This document shows, piece by piece, positions 10,387 to 64,000 of a stretch of 64,000 bases of DNA. How positions within the stretch are numbered: position 1 is the stretch's first letter; every line of letters starts with the position of its first letter. The notes below the pieces were generated by a model that worked only from the letters and a program-made list of their open reading frames with translations, was not told the DNA's origin and did no database searches. Where the stretch lies: positions 10,540 to 74,539 of the forward strand of contig JBAZZC010000003.1 of assembly GCA_041658985.1 (NCBI GenBank), in the 5' to 3' direction. The position numbers and the translations under genes were made by a program. Origin of the DNA: Minisyncoccota bacterium (GTDB lineage: Bacteria > Patescibacteriota > Minisyncoccia > Phycocordibacterales > DATDWN01).

Positions 10387-10660
10387 CAATTAAAAAATCT
10401 CTGTGGTGGGGATTTTTTAATTGTGCGCCCGGAGCAAGAGTGTGGGGCACTCTTGCGTCAGGAATCGAACAGATTCACGGTTTACGCTCGCAGAAGCGAG
10501 TGTTGTGAATCTGCGTTTTAAATTCTGATGAGTGACGACGAATCAGAATTTAAAAAGATTCCGTCCAGAAAAGGTGTACTGACCATGTAATGGTCGATAT
10601 TCCTGCCGGGCGCACAAACCAAAAAATCTCCACTGCTGGAGATTTTTTGCACTAGTGTGC
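10387..10660. repeat. tRNA-Lys 3'-end duplications and hairpin repeats (scars of site-specific integration)
   Basis: A direct copy of the tRNA 3' end (CGATATTCCTGCCGGGCGCACAA) lies at 10595-10617. An inverted, interrupted copy lies near 10425-10475. Hairpins AAAAAATCTCC..GGAGATTTTTT are shared with repeats at 18566-18703 and 23259-23396. Confidence 0.55.
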
Positions 10661-18565: not shown

Positions 18566-18703
18566 GTGGTCAGGAATATTTTGCTCGTCGTCACTCGCAA
18601 AATTTCATGACCCTGACTCAGCTGTTTTTTCTGTTGAAAAAACATGCTTCCGTCCAGCACATAACAATAAAAATCTCCAGCAGTGGAGATTTTTATTGTT
18701 ATG
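18566..18703. repeat. tRNA-flanking hairpin repeat X1
   Basis: About 85% identical to 23259-23396. Contains a 22-bp-stem hairpin GCACATAACAATAAAAATCTCC..GGAGATTTTTATTGTTATGTGC abutting the tRNA 3' end. Confidence 0.7.
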
Positions 18704-18775
18704 TGCTCACGGCAGGAATCGAACCTGCATTTCTCCCTTCGCAGGGGAGTGTCTTATCCATTCAACGACGCGAGC
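18704..18775 (-). tRNA. tRNA-Arg (anticodon GCG as read; the exact anticodon needs checking)
   Basis: Acceptor GCTCGCG/CGTGAGC, anticodon stem CTCCC/GGGAG with loop CTGCGAA, T-arm GCAGGTTCGATTCCTGC. Confidence 0.65.
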
Positions 18776-23258: not shown

Positions 23259-23396
23259 GTGGTCAGGAATATTTTTGTTTCCGTCAAAACAAAAATTTCA
23301 CGACCCTGACTCGGCTGTTTTTTCTACTGAAAAAACATGCCTTCGTCTAGCACATAACAACAAAAATCTCCAGCAGTGGAGATTTTTGTTGTTATG
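23259..23396. repeat. tRNA-flanking hairpin repeat X2
   Basis: About 85% identical to 18566-18703. Same hairpin abutting the 3' end of tRNA-Arg(TCT). Confidence 0.7.
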
Positions 23397-23468
23397 TGCT
23401 CTCGGTTGGAATCGAACCAACATCAAAGCCTTAGAAGAGCTCTACTCTATCCATTGAGCTACGAGAGC
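23397..23468 (-). tRNA. tRNA-Arg (anticodon TCT)
   Basis: Acceptor GCTCTCG/CGAGAGC, anticodon loop CTTCTAA, T-arm GTTGGTTCGATTCCAAC. Confidence 0.75.
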
Positions 23469-26410: not shown

Positions 26411-26517
26411 AAAATAAAAAGCATCCGAAAAATAATATCTTTTGAATAGTTATGTTTTATAAAATATTTTTATAGGTCAGTCGGTACTGGTTTATATTTA
26501 ATAGGTCTATTTTTCTT

Positions 26518-26539
26518 ATCATACGATATATCGTATGAT
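26518..26539. promoter_or_regulatory. Perfect 22-bp palindrome ATCATACGATATATCGTATGAT, 9 nt upstream of the HTH gene
   Basis: Self-complementary. Identical copy at 26937-26958. The core TACGATATATCGTA also occurs at 59159-59184. Confidence 0.6.
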
Positions 26540-26548
26540 ATAAATACT

Positions 26549-26935
26549 ATGCCTCACATATCAAAACAATTTTTAGAAAAGAAGAAGTTTCAAGATATCC
26601 ATAGCCAGTTATTTAAAGTTATTAATATGCTTGTGAGAGAAGGAAAGACAACGGCGATTTTAAATGAACTTTTTACAAAGACAGAAAAATTAATGCTTGC
26701 AAAAAGACTAGCTATTATATTTATGTTGGATCAAAAAGAATCATCTTATGCCATATCAAATATTCTTAAGGTAAGCCAATCAACTGTTGCACTAATGTCA
26801 CTTAAACAAGAAAATGGGAAATATTCGGATATAATAAAAGAAATGAGGAAGCAAAATAATTTTTGGATACAACTTCAGAAAATTATTCCACCACGTGTTG
26901 GCAGAAATCGTTTTAAGAATTTTCTTCAGTTCTAA
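26549..26935 (+). CDS. TrpR/YerC-YecD-like helix-turn-helix DNA-binding protein
   Basis: 128 aa with HTH-like region KRLAIIFML ... SYAISNILKVSQSTV. Exactly bracketed by identical palindromes. Confidence 0.45.
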   Translation: MPHISKQFLEKKKFQDIHSQLFKVINMLVREGKTTAILNELFTKTEKLMLAKRLAIIFMLDQKESSYAISNILKVSQSTVALMSLKQENGKYSDIIKEMRKQNNFWIQLQKIIPPRVGRNRFKNFLQF

Positions 26936-26936
26936 T

Positions 26937-26958
26937 ATCATACGATATATCGTATGAT
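26937..26958. promoter_or_regulatory. Second copy of the 22-bp perfect palindrome, 2 nt after the stop codon
   Basis: ATCATACGATATATCGTATGAT. Confidence 0.6.
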
Positions 26959-27073
26959 ATTATATGTATAAAGGAATAAACGACATGTCTATATTAAAGA
27001 GAAAAAAGTTGAAAATCAATGAATCTTTAAGTACTATTGGAATATCTCGGGTTTGAGAGTGTCGTCATTTAAA

Positions 27074-57585: not shown

Positions 57586-57740
57586 CTCTGGTCTTTTTGT
57601 CCGATTTCAGCGTTGGAATTTCAAAAATTCTCGTCACCGTACGTTTAGTACGGCTCCTCGCATTTTTTCATTCCGCCTTGAACTCGAACAAAAATCCTCA
57701 GAGTTTCATTTCTCGACCTATCAAAACTTGCGTGGTCGTA

Positions 57741-57795
57741 TCTTTTTTGGAAACACAAACCCAGACGCTGGTCTGGGTTTGTGTTTCCAAAAAAG
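57741..57795. terminator. Bidirectional rho-independent terminator between convergent rpsR and efp
   Basis: 18-bp stem GGAAACACAAACCCAGAC gctg GTCTGGGTTTGTGTTTCC, flanked by TTTTTT on one side and AAAAAA on the other. Confidence 0.8.
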
Positions 57796-57821
57796 ATACG
57801 ACGAGCTAAAGTTTTGAAAAA

Positions 57822-58403
57822 CTAAAAGTTGTTACCACCGACTCGTTCAGAATACTCGCCAGTATCACTGTTGATTCGTATAACATCTCCTTCTTTTATA
57901 AACATAGGCACTTGAAGTTCGGCTCCTGTTTCTACCTTTACTGATTTTGTTCCTCCTTGAGCAGTATTGCCTTTGACAGCGGGGTGAGCCTCGATAACTT
58001 TTAGTTCAACCTTGATTGGCATTTTTACACCGATGGTTTTGTCTTGGAAAGATAGGACCTGAACAATTGAATCTTTTTTTAGAAATTGGCTTTGTGTGCC
58101 AATGTGAGATTCATCAATTTCAAATCTGTCGGATGGGTCTTTCGGGTCACAGAACCAAAATTCACCACGATTACTATATAAATATTTTACGTCTTTTGTT
58201 TCAATTTCTGCCTCCTCCACTTTTTCAGACACATGAAAAGATTGCTCTGTTACTTTGCCAGTAATGAGGTTTCGGAGCTTTGTGGCATTAACAGGTTTTC
58301 TCTGTTGTTTGCGGAAAACATGAGAGGTGAGTACTTCCCAAGGCTCGCCGTTAAAAACAATGTATTTTCTTTCTTTTATTTCGTCGTATGTAAGCTGTGA
58401 CAT
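57822..58403 (-). CDS. efp: Elongation factor P
   Basis: Three OB/KOW-like domains; the conserved loop lysine context is present. Confidence 0.9.
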   Translation of the reverse strand: MSQLTYDEIKERKYIVFNGEPWEVLTSHVFRKQQRKPVNATKLRNLITGKVTEQSFHVSEKVEEAEIETKDVKYLYSNRGEFWFCDPKDPSDRFEIDESHIGTQSQFLKKDSIVQVLSFQDKTIGVKMPIKVELKVIEAHPAVKGNTAQGGTKSVKVETGAELQVPMFIKEGDVIRINSDTGEYSERVGGNNF

Positions 58404-58550
58404 TCATAGAATATAGCCTATTTAGGCCGAAAAATCAACTCATAATGAGTTTTACTTTACTATCGGGGTCTACTTGACATCATAAATATTTGGGTATCTA
58501 ATAGTGGTGGGAGGTTGGGCGCCGCCTGGCCAAATTGAAAGAGGTGGAAG

Positions 58551-58754
58551 ATGGAACAAGTGTTAGCGGTTCAGGATTACTCACCGGCAGGGGACGAGAA
58601 ATTGTTCCAGGCAAAGATCAACGAGGATCTGAAGCCCTTTCTCACTTCAGCAAGATGGCGCACTAAGTCAGTTTGTGTGACAACGACGATGATTTCGGTC
58701 TGTGGAACCACGTGGGCACTGCGATGTGCTATCTTCGTTCTTTCTGACGACTAG
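58551..58754 (+). CDS. GC-rich small hypothetical ORF (67 aa)
   Basis: A GAGGTGG Shine-Dalgarno lies 4 nt before the ATG. It sits in a ~58% GC island. No family recognised. Confidence 0.25.
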   Translation: MEQVLAVQDYSPAGDEKLFQAKINEDLKPFLTSARWRTKSVCVTTTMISVCGTTWALRCAIFVLSDD

Positions 58755-58881
58755 CTCTAGGTACAACCGGTCCAGCGAGTTCCCTGCAAGGCAGGAAAAT
58801 CCGCTATCGTGGCCGGTTTTTCTGTATCAATTTAGTTGACAAAAATACAATTATATTTATAGTTAAGTTAGGAGGATAGTT

Positions 58882-59048
58882 GTGGAGAATTCAACAAAGG
58901 CTCATCTTGCCGTCATGTATCTCAGTGGTGTTGCGACCATCGTCGCAGTCACTGTTCTGCCGATCAATATCGGCTCGTGGGTGGGAATTCTCACCTTGAT
59001 CGTGTTTGCTGTTATGGCTCTCAAAACAGCCTGGCGGGTCAAAGTATA
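58882..59048 (+). CDS. GC-rich small membrane peptide (55 aa, GTG start)
   Basis: AGGAGG Shine-Dalgarno. Two hydrophobic helices. An upstream TTGACA-17-TATAGT promoter and a downstream terminator. Confidence 0.35.
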
Positions 59049-59075
59049 GTGATGTGATGTAGTCGACCGCCGGAA

Positions 59076-59103
59076 GGAAAACCACCGGTGGTTTTCCTTT
59101 TAT
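59076..59103 (+). terminator. Rho-independent terminator
   Basis: GGAAAACCACC/GGTGGTTTTCC perfect stem followed by TTTTAT. Confidence 0.7.
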
Positions 59104-59158
59104 AAAAATAATAATATACGAAAATTATGCGAATGATACGAATGAATACGAATGGTCA

Positions 59159-59184
59159 ATTTACTACGATATATCGTAGTAAAT
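59159..59184. promoter_or_regulatory. 26-bp perfect palindrome ATTTACTACGATATATCGTAGTAAAT (same core as the palindromes flanking the HTH gene)
   Basis: Shares the 14-bp core TACGATATATCGTA with 26518-26539 and 26937-26958. Preceded by GAATGATAC-type tandem repeats at 59130-59156. Confidence 0.5.
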
Positions 59185-59369
59185 CATAAAAACCAGAACG
59201 AAGCACAATCTCGTTGAGTCATGTCTTGAGAAAGGCCTTTCGCAGGAGTTTAGAAAATAAAGGAAGTATTCTGACTATTATTTTCTTGAACGACGAGAAG
59301 TTCGCTAGCTCACCAGAGCTAGATAGATTGCCTTTTGAGAGATATGACGAGAAAGAGATTGTGCGAATG

Positions 59370-60446
59370 TTATTCTTCGCTTGAGCTTGATTCGGTTTCG
59401 TTTACTGCGACAACAGAGCCTCCATTTTTGGCAAGGCCCTCGCGGATTTCTTTGAGTATAGCGTCGGCGATTTTTTTATTTACTTTATCTTTCAAAAATT
59501 GTCGTGTGGAATCATACCCACGACCAAGTTTTGTTTCTCCGTAATTGTACGACGTCCCAGATTTTTGAATTATCTTCATTTTCTCGCCGAGAGCAATAAG
59601 CTCACCCTCTCGAGAAATTCCCTCGTTATACATGAGATCAAACTCTGTTTGCTTGAATGGAGCAGCAACTTTATTTTTTACAACCTTTACTCTTATGCGT
59701 CCACCCATAATTTCTTCGCCTTTTTTAATTTGAGCAATCCTACGAATATCAATACGAACTGATGTATAGAATTTGAGTGCCTTTCCTCCAGGAGTTGTTT
59801 CAGGATTACCAAACATAACACCAATTTGCATTCTGATTTGGTTAATGAATATAACCAGCGTTTTTGATTTAGCCACGATAGCCGTTAGCTTGCGGAGGGC
59901 TTGTGACATAAGCCTAGCCTGTTTACCCACATGAAAGGCTCCCATATCACCCTCAATCTCATCTTTTGGTGTCAGGGCTGCCACAGAGTCAATCACAATC
60001 ACATCTATCTTGCCGGAGCGCACAAGAGACTCTACGATTTCCAGGGCCTGCTCACCATTGTCTGGTTGAGAAATAAGAAGTTGGTCTATCTTTACACCAA
60101 GCCTCTGTGAATACTCTGGGTCCATAGCGTGCTCTGCGTCAATGAATGCGCAGATGCCACCTTTCTTTTGAGCCTCAGCAATAACATGTAGAGACAAGGT
60201 GGTTTTACCAGATGACTCTGGTCCAAAGATTTCCACAATTCTTCCACGAGGAAGACCACCAACACCAAGAGCGGCATCCAGTCCAATTGAGCCAGTTGAA
60301 ATTGCGTTTACATCTACATGAGGTTTATCACCGAGCATCATTATAGAATCATCACCAAATTTCGTTCGGATTTCCCGAAGTGTGTTTTCTACATTTACTT
60401 TTCCAATTTCTCCCTTCTCTTCCTTCTTTTCTTTTTTCTTCATCAT
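59370..60446 (-). CDS. recA: Recombinase RecA
   Basis: Walker A motif [10 protein letters not shown]1/L2 loops, and the FIDAEHA motif. Confidence 0.95.
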
Positions 60447-60461
60447 AAAAAATATTAGTTA

Positions 60462-60580
60462 AGAAACTTTGTTGAGTTGTGTTTCGAAGAGAGACTAGTG
60501 AGCGCGACGGCGCGAACTCAAGCAAAATTTTAGTAAAAATTTATGCGTGTCTCTCAGAGAAATACAACGAGAAAAAAGTT
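60462..60580 (-). promoter_or_regulatory. Conserved promoter/operator module, copy 2 (recA promoter: TTGTAT-17-ATAAAT with a TCTCTGAGAGA palindrome)
   Basis: -10 at 60539-60544 and -35 at 60562-60567 on the minus strand. About 85% identical to 4862-4992. Inner hairpin GCGC-cgtc-GCGC versus GGCT-cgac-AGCC in copy 1, a compensatory change. Confidence 0.55.
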
Positions 60581-60591
60581 TCTGGTCGCTA

Positions 60592-60945
60592 TTAATACTC
60601 CTTCAGCACTAATTCTAATGTCTTCTCCGTATATTTTTTAAACTTATCTACGGCATCTAGCTTAATTATATTATACCCAGGGGACAGGAGCAATTTCTCC
60701 TTGAAGTATCCATCTTTGTCTGTAAATATAGGTCGACCATTCAGATTGAGATAGGCGACATTATAAGCTCTTCCGTCGATCTCAATAAGGGTTTGATTGT
60801 ATGTGGCTCCGTTCTGGGGGGTATAGACATCGATGACGGGACCTGTTAGGAGTTTTTGAGCTTGAAAGAGGGAATATCCGACTATTACCAAAACTAATAT
60901 GGAAATGAGGGAAATTCTGAGAACAGATATTGCACTTCTATTCAT
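60592..60945 (-). CDS. Hypothetical membrane-anchored protein
   Basis: N-terminal transmembrane helix followed by a ~90 aa beta-rich domain. Confidence 0.4.
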   Translation of the reverse strand: MNRSAISVLRISLISILVLVIVGYSLFQAQKLLTGPVIDVYTPQNGATYNQTLIEIDGRAYNVAYLNLNGRPIFTDKDGYFKEKLLLSPGYNIIKLDAVDKFKKYTEKTLELVLKEY

Positions 60946-60947
60946 GT

Positions 60948-63167
60948 TTATTCGCTTGGATTATTGGGCGGTATCTCATTGTCTGTATTCAGTGGTTCCA
61001 GAATTTCCCTTGGTTTTGCCCCAGAGCCCGGTCCTATAACCCCACGTTCCTCAAGCATATCAATGAGACGGGCAGCACGGGCATAACCAACGCCAAGTTT
61101 ACGTTGAAGGTAAGAGGTTGAGGCCTTACCGGCCTCTAAGACAGTTTGTCTTGCGTCTTCATACAAGTCATCATCTGCTTCCATTTTTTCGTCATCAATT
61201 GTTGCTTCAAATATGTTGTTTTTTTGGTCTGTTCCAGTGATATTTATTTCACTTGGAATTTCATTTTCATAGCTATCTACCAAATATTTAACCACTGACT
61301 TTGTTTCGGTTTCTGATATGTAAGCCGACTGAATCCTTTGTGGTTGTGACATTTCTCCCGAAAGGTAAAGCATATCTCCAGCACCAAGAAGTTTTTCTGC
61401 TCCGCCCATGTCTAATATAGTTCGTGAATCAATCTGTGATGCCACTTGCAGTGCGATACGTGAAGGAATGTTGGCTTTAATGAGCCCGGTGATGACATTT
61501 ACAGATGGCCTCTGGGTTGAAAGAATCAAATGAATTCCGACAGCACGACTCATTTGGGCTAGGCGAACGATAGCAGCTTCCAGTTCACGTGGATATGCCG
61601 ACATAATATCGGCCAATTCATCAATAACTATGATGATATATGGCATAGTCTCAACAACCTTATCCTCTGGGTTAATTTTCTTATTTTTGATTCTCTTTAG
61701 CTCTGGCTCAACAATATTTTTATGGTATGAAGCGATGTTTTGAAGACTCTCGGCTTGCAGAATATCATATCTTCTATCCATCTCTTTTGCCGCCCATTTC
61801 AAGGCTAAAATCGTCTTTTTTGCGTCCGTGATAACCGGGGTTAGGAGATGTGGAATCTTGTTATAAAGAGTTAGTTCTACTCGTTTTGGGTCAATCATAA
61901 TAAATTTAACGTTGTTTGGTGAGTTTCTGTAAAGAAGCGAAGTTATGATTGTGTGAATAGTGACTGACTTTCCAGAACCCGTAGCTCCAGCAATAAGAAG
62001 GTGTGGGGCCTTAGATAGATTAGCAAAATATGACATCCCCGATATTCCTCTTCCGAGAGAAATCAAAAGGGGTTTGTCAGAGTTTTGGAATTCATTTGAA
62101 GCGAGTAGTGTTCCAAGACCAACAGTTGTTTTTGTGTTGTTTGGTATCTCTATACCAACAAGAGATTTACCAGGGATGGGTGCTTCTATACGAATTGGAT
62201 GTGCCGCTAGAGCCAGAGACAAATCATTTTGTAAACCGACTATACGAGAAAGTTTTATACCCTCGGCTGGTTTCAAAGCGTATCTAGTAATAGATGGTCC
62301 GATGGAAATTTCATCCATCTCAACATTTATACCAAAATTAGCTAAAGTTCTTTTTATAATATTAGAATTTGCTTTTATATCACCAACACCAGGTTTACCA
62401 CGGTCTCCTTCAAGCAGTGACAGTGGTGGTGGTATGAATTCTTTACCATTAAGTAATAAAGGACTAATACCAAATTCATCTTTTATCTCGGTTGATTTTT
62501 TAAAAAGAGATTGGGTTTCTTCCAATTTAGTCATTTCTTTTTGGTCTGCTACGTTTAGAAGTTCTCCATTAGAAATGATTACTTCAGGTCCAGCATCTTC
62601 GGTTCCTGGAAGAATTTCTTTCTTTTGAAACAGGGATTTAATAAAGGTAAATTTTATTGGAGCATCAAAAATAGTCAAAAGAGAAATAATCACAAGAGCC
62701 ACCAAAATTATTACACTGACAAACACATCAAACATATTGAGAAGCGGTTTAGAAATAAATCCACCGATGACTCCACCACTTTCTGTTCCACCAACATTTT
62801 GAGAGAGGATATTTATTAGTGCTAATGAAGATATAAAAAACAATGTTCCACCGACAGTATGTGTTAAAGCAAGTTTTTTTTGAAGTGAACGAAAGAAGGA
62901 GACGCAAAGAATAAAAAATAATATAGGTAACAAGTAGTAACCAACCCCAAAAAGGTAATGAAATATTTTATAAGCACCGACCCCAACTTTCCCCCCCTTA
63001 TCTATTGGACCAGAAGAGAGAATCAAAAAAATCCCAAAAACAAAAAACACTACAGCAATGATTGTATTTAAGGTCTCTTTTTGCAAGTGGTTGGAATTTG
63101 TTTTATCTTCAAACTCTTTTTTCTTTTCTTTTCTTTTTTCTTTTTTATTTCTACCAAACATATACAC
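60948..63167 (-). CDS. ftsK: DNA translocase FtsK
   Basis: N-terminal transmembrane helices, Walker A motif GATGSGKSV, Walker B motif IIVIDELADIM, and a C-terminal gamma domain. Confidence 0.9.
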   Translation of the reverse strand: MYMFGRNKKEKRKEKKKEFEDKTNSNHLQKETLNTIIAVVFFVFGIFLILSSGPIDKGGKVGVGAYKIFHYLFGVGYYLLPILFFILCVSFFRSLQKKLALTHTVGGTLFFISSLALINILSQNVGGTESGGVIGGFISKPLLNMFDVFVSVIILVALVIISLLTIFDAPIKFTFIKSLFQKKEILPGTEDAGPEVIISNGELLNVADQKEMTKLEETQSLFKKSTEIKDEFGISPLLLNGKEFIPPPLSLLEGDRGKPGVGDIKANSNIIKRTLANFGINVEMDEISIGPSITRYALKPAEGIKLSRIVGLQNDLSLALAAHPIRIEAPIPGKSLVGIEIPNNTKTTVGLGTLLASNEFQNSDKPLLISLGRGISGMSYFANLSKAPHLLIAGATGSGKSVTIHTIITSLLYRNSPNNVKFIMIDPKRVELTLYNKIPHLLTPVITDAKKTILALKWAAKEMDRRYDILQAESLQNIASYHKNIVEPELKRIKNKKINPEDKVVETMPYIIIVIDELADIMSAYPRELEAAIVRLAQMSRAVGIHLILSTQRPSVNVITGLIKANIPSRIALQVASQIDSRTILDMGGAEKLLGAGDMLYLSGEMSQPQRIQSAYISETETKSVVKYLVDSYENEIPSEINITGTDQKNNIFEATIDDEKMEADDDLYEDARQTVLEAGKASTSYLQRKLGVGYARAARLIDMLEERGVIGPGSGAKPREILEPLNTDNEIPPNNPSE

Positions 63168-63378
63168 CTATTTTAACAGAGTACCATTCAAATCCAAAGT
63201 TTTTTGTTACAAATTTTTACAACAACAAAAAGACAATCTGTCTATTGTCAGTTTGTCTTTTAGTGTTATATAATGGACACACTTGACGGTATTAAAGACT
63301 GGTGGTATTATAAAGGACATGATAAGGACAAAACAGTAAAAGACATTGAATATAAAAGACATATCAATTACAAATAAA

Positions 63379-64000
63379 ATGGAATCCAACAAAGAACTTT
63401 CAACAGAAACATCACAGGAAAATGTCGACCCAATATCATTTTTTAATAAAAACAATGATTTTGTTTTAGCGTATAAAAAGACAGAAAAACTAGCTTCAGC
63501 CGTCTATATGATTACAAATTTGTTTTCGGACAATGAACCAATGAAATGGACTTTAAGAAAAAAAGCTGGAGAACTATTGTCTTTTATTCTTACTTATAAA
63601 GATACTCCGGAAGGTAGTTATGGTGATTTTATTTATAATACAAAAACTTTTACCACTGAGCTCATTTCATTTCTTGAGATTTCTTTACGTGGTGGACTTG
63701 TTTCTCAGATGAATTTTTCTATTTTAAAACAAGAGTTTTTAAATCTTTTAAGTATATTTAACAATGCCAATCCTACTTCAAAATATTCATCAAAAGAGAT
63801 GATATCAAAGGATTTTTTTAATGTTTTAGAAAACTATTCTAATATAGTAAAATCAGAAGGTGAAGATGATAAAATCTATAAAACACCCGAATCTATACCA
63901 TTAGCACACAAAATGTCCTTTAGCAGGATAAAGGACATAAATTTAGATACTAATAGAGATAACTTTAAAAAAACGAATCGCCAAAATATAATTCTTGATT
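63379..64000 (+). CDS. Hypothetical protein (partial; runs off the window end)
   Basis: Open frame from the ATG at 63379 with no stop before 64000. Preceded by TGTTATATAAT and TTGACG-17-TATTAT promoters. Confidence 0.4.
   Translation, partial: MESNKELSTETSQENVDPISFFNKNNDFVLAYKKTEKLASAVYMITNLFSDNEPMKWTLRKKAGELLSFILTYKDTPEGSYGDFIYNTKTFTTELISFLEISLRGGLVSQMNFSILKQEFLNLLSIFNNANPTSKYSSKEMISKDFFNVLENYSNIVKSEGEDDKIYKTPESIPLAHKMSFSRIKDINLDTNRDNFKKTNRQNIILD

What the first reader, a model, noticed from the sequence alone, without database searches (positions are those of the whole stretch)
26518..26958. HTH regulator gene exactly bracketed by identical perfect 22-bp palindromes; third site with the same core at 59159
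ATCATACGATATATCGTATGAT occurs 9 nt before the ATG and again 2 nt after the stop of a TrpR/YerC-like 128-aa gene. A 26-bp perfect palindrome with the same 14-bp core (TACGATATATCGTA) lies at 59159-59184 near the GC-rich island. Either the regulator auto-regulates and loops between two operators and has one remote target, or the gene is a palindrome-bounded mobile cassette.
Basis: seen in the sequence. Interest (0 to 1): 0.6.

Follow-up and report, generated by a model that had tools for sequence, protein, structure and literature searches.

The report
Repressor gene bracketed by its operators
A small Trp-repressor-like gene of a candidate-phyla-radiation bacterium sits between two copies of its own probable DNA binding site, and the same layout, with binding sites that change in step with the protein, recurs in most of the roughly 80 relatives examined.

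Summary
Identical perfect palindromes lie 9 nt before the ATG and at the stop codon of a 128-aa Trp_repressor-family gene. A third palindrome with the same 14-bp core lies about 185 nt after the recA stop.

This layout is a family trait, not a quirk of this locus. In 64 of 79 related Paceibacteria loci, the flanks on either side of the gene share an identical stretch of at least 12 nt. The palindrome differs between lineages but matches within each locus. It tracks the protein's recognition helix, and paralogues in one genome carry different palindromes. The sites are rare elsewhere: 96 at the gene against 3 in 822 kb of flanking DNA.

Conserved thrS–gene–gyrB synteny with different palindromes argues against a mobile cassette.

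Best reading: these are the repressor's own operators.
- The upstream copy overlaps the core promoter of a nearly leaderless mRNA, giving autorepression.
- The downstream copy sits at the 3' end and probably acts as a roadblock or loop anchor. Its role is unresolved.

Lone sites of a related palindrome type favour gene 3' ends, which is odd for a classical repressor. I class this as a new variant of a known kind, of moderate to good interest.

The parts
26517..26540 (.). Upstream operator: a 24-bp perfect palindrome TATCATACGATATATCGTATGATA (core 26522-26535), 8 nt before the ATG
   Evidence: A same-position palindrome is present in relatives.
26534..26539 (+). -10-like hexamer TATGAT in the right arm of the upstream palindrome (inferred). 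It would place the transcription start about 2-3 nt before the ATG, giving a near-leaderless mRNA.
   Evidence: A TAnnnT element lies at centre +6..+11 in most upstream copies shown. The modal centre-to-ATG distance of 17 puts the A of the ATG at +18. The consensus promoter scan was not above chance, so this is inference.
26549..26935 (+). 128-aa TrpR-fold HTH gene. The recognition helix starts at S76-Q77-S78-T79. The basic C-terminal tail PPRVGRNRFKNF is conserved.
   Evidence: Pfam PF01371 at 34 bits. AF2 model pLDDT 84, with Foldseek probability 0.99 to 1TRO, 1TRR and 3KOR. 96 homologues found. Alignment A1.
26933..26962 (.). Downstream operator: a 30-bp perfect palindrome TAATATCATACGATATATCGTATGATATTA that includes the TAA stop codon
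   Evidence: A downstream copy is present in most relatives, with its centre usually 9-76 nt (extremes to 143 nt) after the stop. As RNA it folds at -14.4 kcal/mol but has no U-tract.
59159..59184 (.). Lone third palindrome ATTTACTACGATATATCGTAGTAAAT, about 185 nt after the recA stop, in a convergent and strain-variable spacer
   Evidence: L210 has a palindrome at the same position with the same arms and a different palindromic centre. The identical 26-mer brackets a TrpR-like gene in another organism, L285.
59116..59152 (+). Four half-site-like direct repeats (ATACGAA, ATGCGAA, ATACGAA, ATACGAA) spaced 9-11 bp apart, next to site 3. Their relevance is unknown.

Best explanation
The 128-aa protein is a dimeric TrpR-fold repressor, and the palindromes are its own two-fold symmetric DNA operators. 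The gene and its two flanking operators form a self-contained autoregulatory unit that was inherited vertically and is conserved across the Paceibacteria relatives examined. The upstream operator overlaps the -10 region and start site of a leaderless or nearly leaderless mRNA, so bound repressor shuts off its own promoter and blocks read-through from the co-directional upstream gene. The downstream operator lies at or just after the stop codon. Bound repressor there most likely acts as a transcription roadblock or insulator against the usually convergent neighbour. It may also act as the second anchor of a repression loop of about 420 bp. A few lone sites elsewhere, such as site 3 after recA, would be extra targets. 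Shown here: the sequence facts, the family-wide bracket, the co-variation and the rarity of sites. Inferred: binding, autorepression, leaderless transcription and the role of the downstream copy.
For: (1) 64 of 79 family loci share an identical stretch of at least 12 nt between the upstream 100 nt and the downstream 300 nt. 48 of 76 share a palindromic 12-mer, against 3 of 1,286 control ORFs. Those 3 controls turned out to be family genes or a distant paralogue.
(2) The palindrome type differs between lineages (TACGATATATCGTA, TATCATATATGATA, ACCGATATATCGGT, AGCGATATATCGCT, CAGTATACTG, ACATTATAATGT, ACAGCGCTGT and others), but the two copies in each locus match.
(3) The strongest protein-DNA association is recognition-helix residue 78 with half-site base -4 (z = 16.7), and residue 77 associates with base -6. 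SPST goes with TACG in 19 of 20 loci, and SPAT with TATC in 11 of 11. These residues align to TrpR Ile79 and Ala80.
(4) Paralogues in one assembly or contig carry different palindromes: L163/L178, L147/L150, and two genes 1.2 kb apart in L201. So the sequence follows the gene, not the genome.
(5) 100 of 107 family sites are symmetric through the centre, against 40 of 306 control inverted repeats. This is expected for a dimer on DNA, not for an RNA hairpin.
(6) Sites are rare away from the gene: 96 at gene flanks against 3 in 822 kb.
(7) TrpR-family proteins bind roughly 20-bp palindromes and often autoregulate (PMC9413887).
(8) Upstream geometry: a TAnnnT element at centre +6..+11, and a modal ATG at +18.
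(9) The downstream copy is present whether the next gene is convergent (41 loci) or co-directional (18 loci).
Against: There are no binding, transcript-start or transcript-end data. The co-variation statistic does not correct for phylogeny, and other lineage-marker residues (54, 67) also score high. The promoter scan is at chance level (5 found against 4.8 expected). Shine-Dalgarno-like motifs are rare before all ORFs in a crude count (3 of 70), so their absence here is not distinctive. Perfect symmetry extends to 36-54 bp in some loci, and the downstream arm is the longer one in 21 loci against 12. That is more than one dimer needs. Lone sites of the related ACTAC type lie in 9 convergent, 18 tandem and 0 divergent spacers, often within 40 nt of a stop codon. 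This is the opposite of what promoter operators should show. No helical phasing was found between the two copies.
Confidence: 0.62

Rival explanations
1. The palindromes work mainly as RNA hairpins, either bidirectional terminators or 3'-end stabilisers, at the ends of adjacent transcription units. The upstream copy would end the upstream gene. The downstream copy would end the regulator and the convergent gene. Protein binding would be secondary or absent.
For: The hairpins fold at -11 to -16.6 kcal/mol with z-scores of -3.5 to -5.2. The upstream neighbour is co-directional in 48 of 62 paired loci and the downstream neighbour is convergent in 41 of 59. Lone sites favour gene 3' ends. Arms reach up to 27 nt. 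This genome does use long perfect hairpins after genes.
Against: There is no U-tract, and the terminator scan finds nothing at either site. A hairpin needs no symmetry in its loop, yet 100 of 107 sites are symmetric through the centre against 13% of control inverted repeats. A general terminator would not be nearly confined to one gene. It would not track recognition-helix residues or differ between paralogues in one genome.
Confidence: 0.15
2. The gene plus its palindromes is a mobile or recombining cassette, comparable to pdif modules or integron cassettes. The palindromes would be recombination sites, and lone copies would be scars or attachment sites.
For: The closest relatives (70-77% identity) carry the unit in different neighbourhoods and, in L007, in inverted orientation relative to rplS. 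Site 3 lies in a strain-variable spacer. A variant contig (L257) shares only the palindrome there, and a JGI contig ends at the branch point. A perfect palindrome is at once a direct and an inverted repeat.
Against: The thrS -> gene <- gyrB arrangement is kept in about 20 species that carry different palindrome types, which fits change in place rather than transfer (neighbours confirmed by Pfam). No integrase, transposase or Xer gene is called within +/-10 kb of the window's gene. More than 120 viral contigs carry the core but none has the gene. A host recombinase would impose one site type per genome, yet paralogues differ.
Confidence: 0.07
3. The protein is a dedicated boundary or termination factor rather than a promoter repressor. 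It would bind palindromes placed at gene 3' ends and stop RNA polymerase there, and it brackets its own gene as part of this role.
For: Lone ACTAC-type sites show 9 convergent, 18 tandem and 0 divergent contexts. That is p of about 0.002, or 7 against 0 after removing near-duplicate loci by eye. Many overlap or closely follow a stop codon. The downstream copy overlaps the stop codon in the window and sits close to it in others such as L154, L192 and L178. The downstream copy does not depend on neighbour orientation.
Against: ORF calling was crude. The lone-site set was drawn for one palindrome type only and includes near-duplicates. The upstream copy lies exactly where a classical operator would. 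Some lone or downstream sites sit at gene starts: rpsF in L210, and rpiB, fba and tpiA by N-terminal sequence motif only. No such factor is known in bacteria.
Confidence: 0.13

Closest known systems
E. coli TrpR and its autoregulated trpR operator
   Same: TrpR fold, Pfam PF01371, and a two-fold symmetric operator overlapping its own promoter. Some variants (TGTACGATATATCGTACA in L161, L174, L202) share the outer TGTAC/GTACA of the TrpR motif TGTAcTnGTnnACnAgTACA quoted in PMC9413887. The residues aligned to TrpR T44, R54 and T81 are conserved.
   Different: NCBIfam TrpR scores 13.3 bits against a 67.25 cut-off. The protein has an extra conserved basic C-terminal tail. There is a second operator after the stop codon. 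No trp genes are called within +/-10 kb. The operator has an 8-bp rather than a 10-bp inner spacing. The residue aligned to R84 is Leu in the window's protein.
HisR / YerC (TrpR-family histidine repressor of Firmicutes; PMC9413887)
   Same: These are the closest solved relatives by sequence: 3KOR, 3FRW and 3G1C, E = 5.6e-07 to 5.1e-06. HisR has lineage-specific 20-bp palindromic motifs, and about half of hisR genes have an upstream HisR site.
   Different: NCBIfam YerC/YecD scores 14.4 bits against a 42.2 cut-off. The HisR consensus cacTTTAnnnnnnTAAAgtg is unrelated. HisR has a single upstream site and a his/transport regulon. Here there are two sites around the gene and almost none elsewhere.
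LacI with auxiliary operators; O3 lies at the 3' end of lacI (my own knowledge: Oehler et al. 1990; Abo et al. 2000)
   Same: A repressor with an operator at the 3' end of its own gene and another about 400 bp away. Looping and a roadblock that truncates its own mRNA are established there.
   Different: The fold is unrelated. LacI is a tetramer, and the oligomeric state here is unknown. In lac the operators serve the neighbouring operon, not a bracket around the repressor gene.
Tus-TerB and RTP-TerI (my own knowledge)
   Same: A DNA-binding protein whose gene adjoins its own rare genomic sites and is autoregulated through them.
   Different: Ter sites are asymmetric and lie around the terminus. 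Here the sites are perfect palindromes, and the gene shows no GC-skew switch in 38 of 43 loci.
pdif modules / Xer-dependent cassettes (my own knowledge)
   Same: A gene bounded by two short palindromic sites.
   Different: No Xer or integrase gene is called within +/-10 kb. Synteny is conserved. The site sequence follows the enclosed gene's HTH, not a host recombinase.

Membership tests
TrpR family (Pfam PF01371, Trp_repressor) | Sequence match above the curated threshold | tested here: met
   34 bits against a cut-off of 27. Nearly all homologues listed carry PF01371.
TrpR family (Pfam PF01371, Trp_repressor) | TrpR-like all-helical fold with an HTH | tested here: met
   AF2 model pLDDT 84. 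Foldseek probability 0.99 and target-normalised TM 0.65-0.77 to 1TRO, 1TRR, 6F7F and 3KOR.
TrpR family (Pfam PF01371, Trp_repressor) | Binds a two-fold symmetric operator of about 18-20 bp | not testable with these tools
   Indirect support only: palindromes of 22-30 bp, co-variation with helix residues 77/78, and symmetry through the centre.
TrpR (equivalog TIGR01321) / YerC-YecD = HisR (TIGR02531) | Equivalog-level sequence match | tested here: not met
   13.3 bits against 67.25, and 14.4 bits against 42.2.
TrpR / HisR amino-acid repressors | Operators in front of trp/aro or his/transport genes | tested here: not met
   No such genes are called within +/-10 kb of the window's gene or of P0006 and P0009. 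In 822 kb of family flanks only 3 extra sites were found, none at an amino-acid gene. A whole-genome scan was not possible.
TrpR / HisR amino-acid repressors | Corepressor-contacting residues (TrpR T44, R54, T81, R84) | tested here: inconclusive
   They align to T43, R53, T79 and L82. The first three are conserved. Position 82 is Arg in many relatives but Leu here (hhalign probability only 50%).
Mobile cassette (integron cassette, pdif module, MITE-like) | Associated recombinase, or variable presence within a conserved context | tested here: not met
   No recombinase gene is called within +/-10 kb. The thrS-gene-gyrB slot is conserved in about 20 species. Empty-site alleles could not be searched for.
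Intrinsic terminator | GC-rich stem followed by a U-tract | tested here: not met
   No terminator-like hit at either palindrome. The stems are AT-rich and lack a T-run.
Replication fork trap (Tus/Ter, RTP/Ter) | Sites and gene at the terminus (GC-skew switch); polar, asymmetric sites | tested here: not met
   Skew has the same sign on both sides in 38 of 43 loci. The sites are perfect palindromes.
Looping repressor with auxiliary operator | Two or more operators bound together by an oligomer; helical phasing | tested here: inconclusive
   Two operators lie 419-622 bp apart. Phasing R = 0.12-0.18, p > 0.1. Oligomeric state is unknown.

The most novel reading that the evidence does not exclude
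Paceibacteria TrpR-like proteins may be site-specific boundary factors. Each would bind a lineage-specific palindrome placed at stop codons or between convergent genes and halt RNA polymerase there, acting as a protein roadblock terminator or insulator. Its own gene would be fenced on both sides by the same site.
Probability: 0.15. Interest if true: 0.8.

Novelty: new variant of a known kind. Interest (0 to 1): 0.58.

Why it matters
Almost nothing is known about transcription control in candidate-phyla-radiation bacteria, which have very few regulators and have rarely been cultured alone. This is a widespread family: 288 loci in species-representative genomes encode a relative. Its likely operator can be read directly from the two flanks of each gene. 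That yields dozens of natural protein-operator pairs, including paralogues with different sites within one genome. Together they form a ready-made data set for a TrpR-fold recognition code and a source of compact, insulated, self-regulating parts. The conserved second operator at the stop codon, and the 3'-end bias of lone sites, hint at a role in ending or insulating transcription. Such a role would be new for this fold. I found no description of this architecture in the searchable literature.

Tried and rejected
1. Phage or mobile link. The 14-mer is too short for collection scans.
2. Replication terminus or Ter-like trap. This was prompted by the cumulative GC skew levelling off near 58-60 kb in the window. 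It is rejected because 38 of 43 family loci show no skew switch at the gene.
3. Helical phasing of the two operators. No signal was found.
4. The downstream copy as the promoter operator of the next gene. The next gene is convergent in 41 of 59 paired loci, and no conserved small ORF follows the site.
5. Canonical promoter and terminator scans around the gene were at chance level.
6. Lack of a Shine-Dalgarno motif as evidence for a leaderless mRNA. This was dropped because only 3 of 70 ORFs in the window show such a motif in a crude count.
7. A structured-RNA identity for the GC-rich island. Rfam gave nothing credible.
8. recA linkage of site 3 in metagenomes. The ATTTACTAC-N8-GTAGTAAAT scan found 117 loci and none has recA. 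Instead it revealed a second subfamily bracketed by that palindrome, plus lone sites.
9. A search for a paralogue or further sites in about 17 kb beyond the window ends. None was found.
10. A look-up of FtsK from the GTG start failed because the exact product is not on record.
11. One literature query was rejected by the tool for a term of more than four words.

Full report
**Observation.** The finding is accurate. ATCATACGATATATCGTATGAT lies at 26518-26539, with 9 nt before the ATG at 26549. It recurs at 26937-26958, starting at the second base after the TAA stop at 26933-26935. Perfect symmetry runs to 24 bp upstream (26517-26540) and to 30 bp downstream (26933-26962, including the stop codon). 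A 26-bp perfect palindrome, ATTTACTACGATATATCGTAGTAAAT, lies at 59159-59184. The shared 14-bp core occurs 3 times against 0.11 expected, and none of 100 shuffles reached 3. Allowing 3 mismatches adds no sites. Only four perfect palindromes with arms of at least 8 nt exist in the window. Three are these sites.

**The gene.** The ORF at 26549-26935 (+) encodes 128 aa.
- It matches Pfam Trp_repressor at 34 bits against a cut-off of 27.
- It fails the NCBIfam equivalogs for TrpR (13.3 against 67.25) and YerC/YecD (14.4 against 42.2).
- An AlphaFold model (pLDDT 84) matches TrpR and YerC-like structures with Foldseek probability 0.99.
- The closest solved relatives by sequence are 3KOR, 3FRW and 3G1C.
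- The family has a nearly invariant N-terminus MPHIS, the motif T-x-T-E-K-x-M-L-A-K-R-L-A, a recognition helix starting S-P-S-T (SQST here), and a conserved basic tail PPRVGRNRFKNF that is modelled with low confidence.
- The source is a Candidatus Paceibacterota MAG.

**The bracket is a family trait.** Homologues at 77% and 70% identity (L004, L007) sit in different neighbourhoods. Each still has a palindrome with the same core 6 nt before the ATG and another 40-65 nt after the stop. The surrounding intergenic DNA shows no obvious similarity. A scan of one genome per GTDB species found 288 loci encoding relatives, and the best 80 are all Patescibacteria.
- In 64 of 79 loci, the 100 nt upstream and the 300 nt downstream share an identical stretch of 12-30 nt. 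The copies lie 419-622 bp apart, centre to centre.
- 48 of 76 family genes share a palindromic 12-mer between their flanks, against 3 of 1,286 control ORFs. Two of those three controls were family genes that my filter missed. The third is a more distant Trp_repressor paralogue (48 bits) in L201, itself bracketed by CTTTATCTTATAAGATAAAG.

**The palindrome follows the protein.** Palindrome types differ between lineages, but the two copies in a locus match. Types include TACGATATATCGTA, TATCATATATGATA, ACCGATATATCGGT, AGCGATATATCGCT, TAGCATATATGCTA, CAGTATACTG, ACATTATAATGT, TTCGATTAATCGAA, ACAGCGCTGT and GCGATGCATCGC.
- Among all pairs of protein position and half-site position, the strongest association is residue 78 with base -4 (z = 16.7). 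Residue 77 with base -6 is also high.
- SPST goes with TACG in 19 of 20 loci, and SPAT with TATC in 11 of 11. S[ST]ST goes with (A/C/T)(G/T)CG, and S[IL]ST with A(C/T)CG.
- These residues align with TrpR Ile79 and Ala80 at the start of the recognition helix.
- Phylogeny was not controlled, and lineage markers such as residues 54 and 67 also score high.
- Independent support comes from paralogues in one assembly or contig that carry different palindromes: DATEAC01 (L163/L178), CAYHDI01 (L147/L150), and two genes 1.2 kb apart in L201. A genome-wide agent such as a host recombinase, a restriction system or the termination machinery would not produce this.
- 100 of 107 family sites are symmetric right through the centre, against 40 of 306 control inverted repeats in the same loci. 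That fits a dimer on duplex DNA, not a hairpin loop.

**Not a mobile cassette.** In about 20 species the gene lies in the same slot, thrS -> gene <- gyrB, sometimes with a Ham1-family gene between. The neighbours were confirmed by Pfam. This one slot holds TACGAT-, TATCAT-, GCGAT- and CAGTAT-type palindromes. The simplest account is change in place, with both operators following the protein. No recombinase gene is called within +/-10 kb of the window's gene. None of more than 120 viral contigs carrying the core encodes a relative. The differing contexts of the nearest relatives fit ordinary rearrangement. In L007, rplS, rluD and a Cob_adeno_trans gene are still within 6 kb.

**Rarity and the third site.** Each locus's own 12-14-nt core occurs 96 times at gene flanks and 3 times elsewhere in 822 kb. 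The three are:
- window site 3;
- a 24-bp palindrome inside an RVT_1 reverse-transcriptase ORF (next to a bAvd gene, so probably a diversity-generating retroelement) in L007;
- a 36-bp palindrome 42 nt after a 572-aa ORF in L182.

About 17 kb beyond the window ends holds no further site and no paralogue.

Site 3 lies about 185 nt after the recA stop, in the recA-efp spacer. That spacer is 50 bp to 1.1 kb long in relatives and holds varying small GC-rich ORF cassettes. L210 (RecA 94% identical) has ATTTACTACATTATAATGTAGTAAAT about 201 nt after recA. It has the same arms as site 3 and a different centre that is still palindromic, so the site appears to be maintained.

A metagenome scan for ATTTACTAC-N8-GTAGTAAAT found 117 loci.
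- None is next to recA.
- Some are the two bracketing copies of a different TrpR-like subfamily (VSPTTVAK helix). L285 carries the exact site-3 26-mer on both sides of its gene.
- Others are lone sites.

Within SPST-type proteins the base before TACG varies freely (CATACG, CTTACG, CCTACG, ACTACG, TGTACG). The window's protein could therefore plausibly bind site 3, but an unseen paralogue could too.

A strain variant from the same metagenome (L257) shares window 59329-59207. It then diverges into another GC-rich cassette, a PIF1 helicase and the same palindrome. A JGI contig ends at that branch point.

**Upstream copy.** Aligned on the palindrome centre, most upstream copies show a TAnnnT element at +6..+11. 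The commonest centre-to-ATG distance is 17 nt. This puts the A of the ATG at +18, the position expected for a transcription start. In the window the distance is 20, which implies a leader of about 2-3 nt. This points to leaderless or near-leaderless mRNA with the operator over the -10 region and the start site. It is inference only. The generic promoter scan is at chance, and Shine-Dalgarno-like motifs are rare before all ORFs in a crude count (3 of 70).

**Downstream copy.**
- It is present with a convergent neighbour in 41 loci and a co-directional neighbour in 18, so it belongs to the regulator's own unit.
- It overlaps the stop codon in the window and lies close to it in several relatives.
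- Its perfect arm is the longer one in 21 loci against 12, reaching 27 nt.
- As RNA it would fold at -14.4 kcal/mol, but it has no U-tract and does not score as a terminator.
- In some lineages it also precedes a co-directional gene. By N-terminal sequence motif these look like rpiB, fba, tpiA, uvrA, udg and RNase H, and in two cases tRNAs.
- There is no helical phasing between the two copies.

The lone ACTAC-type sites lie in 9 convergent, 18 tandem and 0 divergent spacers. The expected counts are 4.8, 17.2 and 4.9. The convergent-against-divergent comparison gives p of about 0.002, or 7 against 0 after I removed near-duplicate loci by eye. Many are within 40 nt of a stop codon. This 3'-end bias is unexpected for a promoter repressor. 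It is the main reason I keep a roadblock or boundary function in play.

**Mechanism proposed.** A TrpR-fold dimer binds both palindromes. The outer sub-sites may be read by the basic tail or by a second dimer; in Nomurabacteria the site is CCTTAR-NN-TATCATATATGATA-NN-YTAAGG. The upstream complex represses the gene's own promoter. The downstream complex blocks polymerases leaving or entering the gene, and it may pair with the upstream complex in a loop. LacI, whose O3 operator lies at the end of lacI, is a precedent for both effects (my own knowledge). I put about 0.8 on the protein binding these sites, about 0.7 on autorepression, and much less on any single role for the downstream copy.

**Comparison and novelty.** TrpR-family repressors with roughly 20-bp palindromic, lineage-specific operators and a single autoregulatory site upstream are known (PMC9413887). 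Several features are different here:
- a distinct Patescibacteria clade that fails the TrpR and YerC equivalogs;
- a C-terminal tail;
- no amino-acid biosynthesis genes called within +/-10 kb;
- a conserved second operator at the 3' end, so the gene is fenced by its own sites;
- very few other sites;
- clear co-divergence of operator and helix, including paralogues with different sites in one genome.

Three literature searches found no description of this. I class it as a new variant of a known kind, with interest 0.58.

Noticed in passing
window 18656-18707, 23349-23400, 10620-10649: Two near-identical perfect hairpins with 24-nt arms (AGCACATAACAA[T/C]AAAAATCTCCA / TGGAGATTTTT...) abut the 3' ends of the two tRNA-Arg genes. 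A shorter relative (CAAAAAATCTCCA) lies at 10620-10649. They look like a repeated terminator module.
   Followed up: no
window 57735-57802: A perfect inverted repeat with 32-nt arms and a 4-nt loop lies between rpsR and efp.
   Followed up: no
window 58470-59100: The GC-rich island consists of small GC-rich ORFs: a 67-aa ORF at 58551-58754 and a 55-aa hydrophobic ORF at 58882-59049. Each has a TTGACA-type promoter and a GC-rich hairpin terminator. Neither has a Pfam or Rfam match. The recA-efp spacer that holds them is 50 bp to 1.1 kb long in relatives and carries different cassettes of the same style.
   Followed up: partly
L257 1-2627 against window 59207-59329; L333 end: A strain-level structural variant comes from the same metagenome (Ga0172379). 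It is identical over 123 nt of the recA 3' region. It then diverges into another GC-rich cassette, a PIF1-like helicase (557 aa) and the same 30-bp palindrome 6 nt after the helicase stop. The JGI recA contig ends at the branch point.
   Followed up: partly
window 59203-59212 and 59355-59364: A 10-nt inverted repeat, GCACAATCTC / GAGATTGTGC, encloses about 140 nt of the recA 3' region. Both arms are conserved in L210 while the interior differs. This may be a structured 3' UTR.
   Followed up: no
window 59116-59152: Four half-site-like direct repeats (ATACGAA, ATGCGAA, ATACGAA, ATACGAA) lie 9-11 bp apart next to the third palindrome.
   Followed up: no
L007 7571-7604: A 24-bp palindrome identical to that genome's downstream operator lies inside an intact RVT_1 reverse-transcriptase ORF. 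A bAvd gene sits next to it, so this is probably a diversity-generating retroelement.
   Followed up: no
L201 11572-12003: A second, distant Trp_repressor gene (143 aa, 48 bits) lies 1.2 kb from the first. It is bracketed by its own palindrome, CTTTATCTTATAAGATAAAG, so the bracket extends beyond the clade studied.
   Followed up: partly
L210 8124-8157: A 34-bp palindrome, TCCCATAATATACGATATATCGTATATTATGGGA, overlaps the start of rpsF between tatD and rpsF. It is a candidate regulated target in a relative.
   Followed up: no
window 58000-64000: The cumulative GC skew rises across the window and levels off at about 58-60 kb, where gene orientation flips at recA and ftsK. This may lie near the replication terminus, but too little sequence lies beyond it to tell.
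   Followed up: partly
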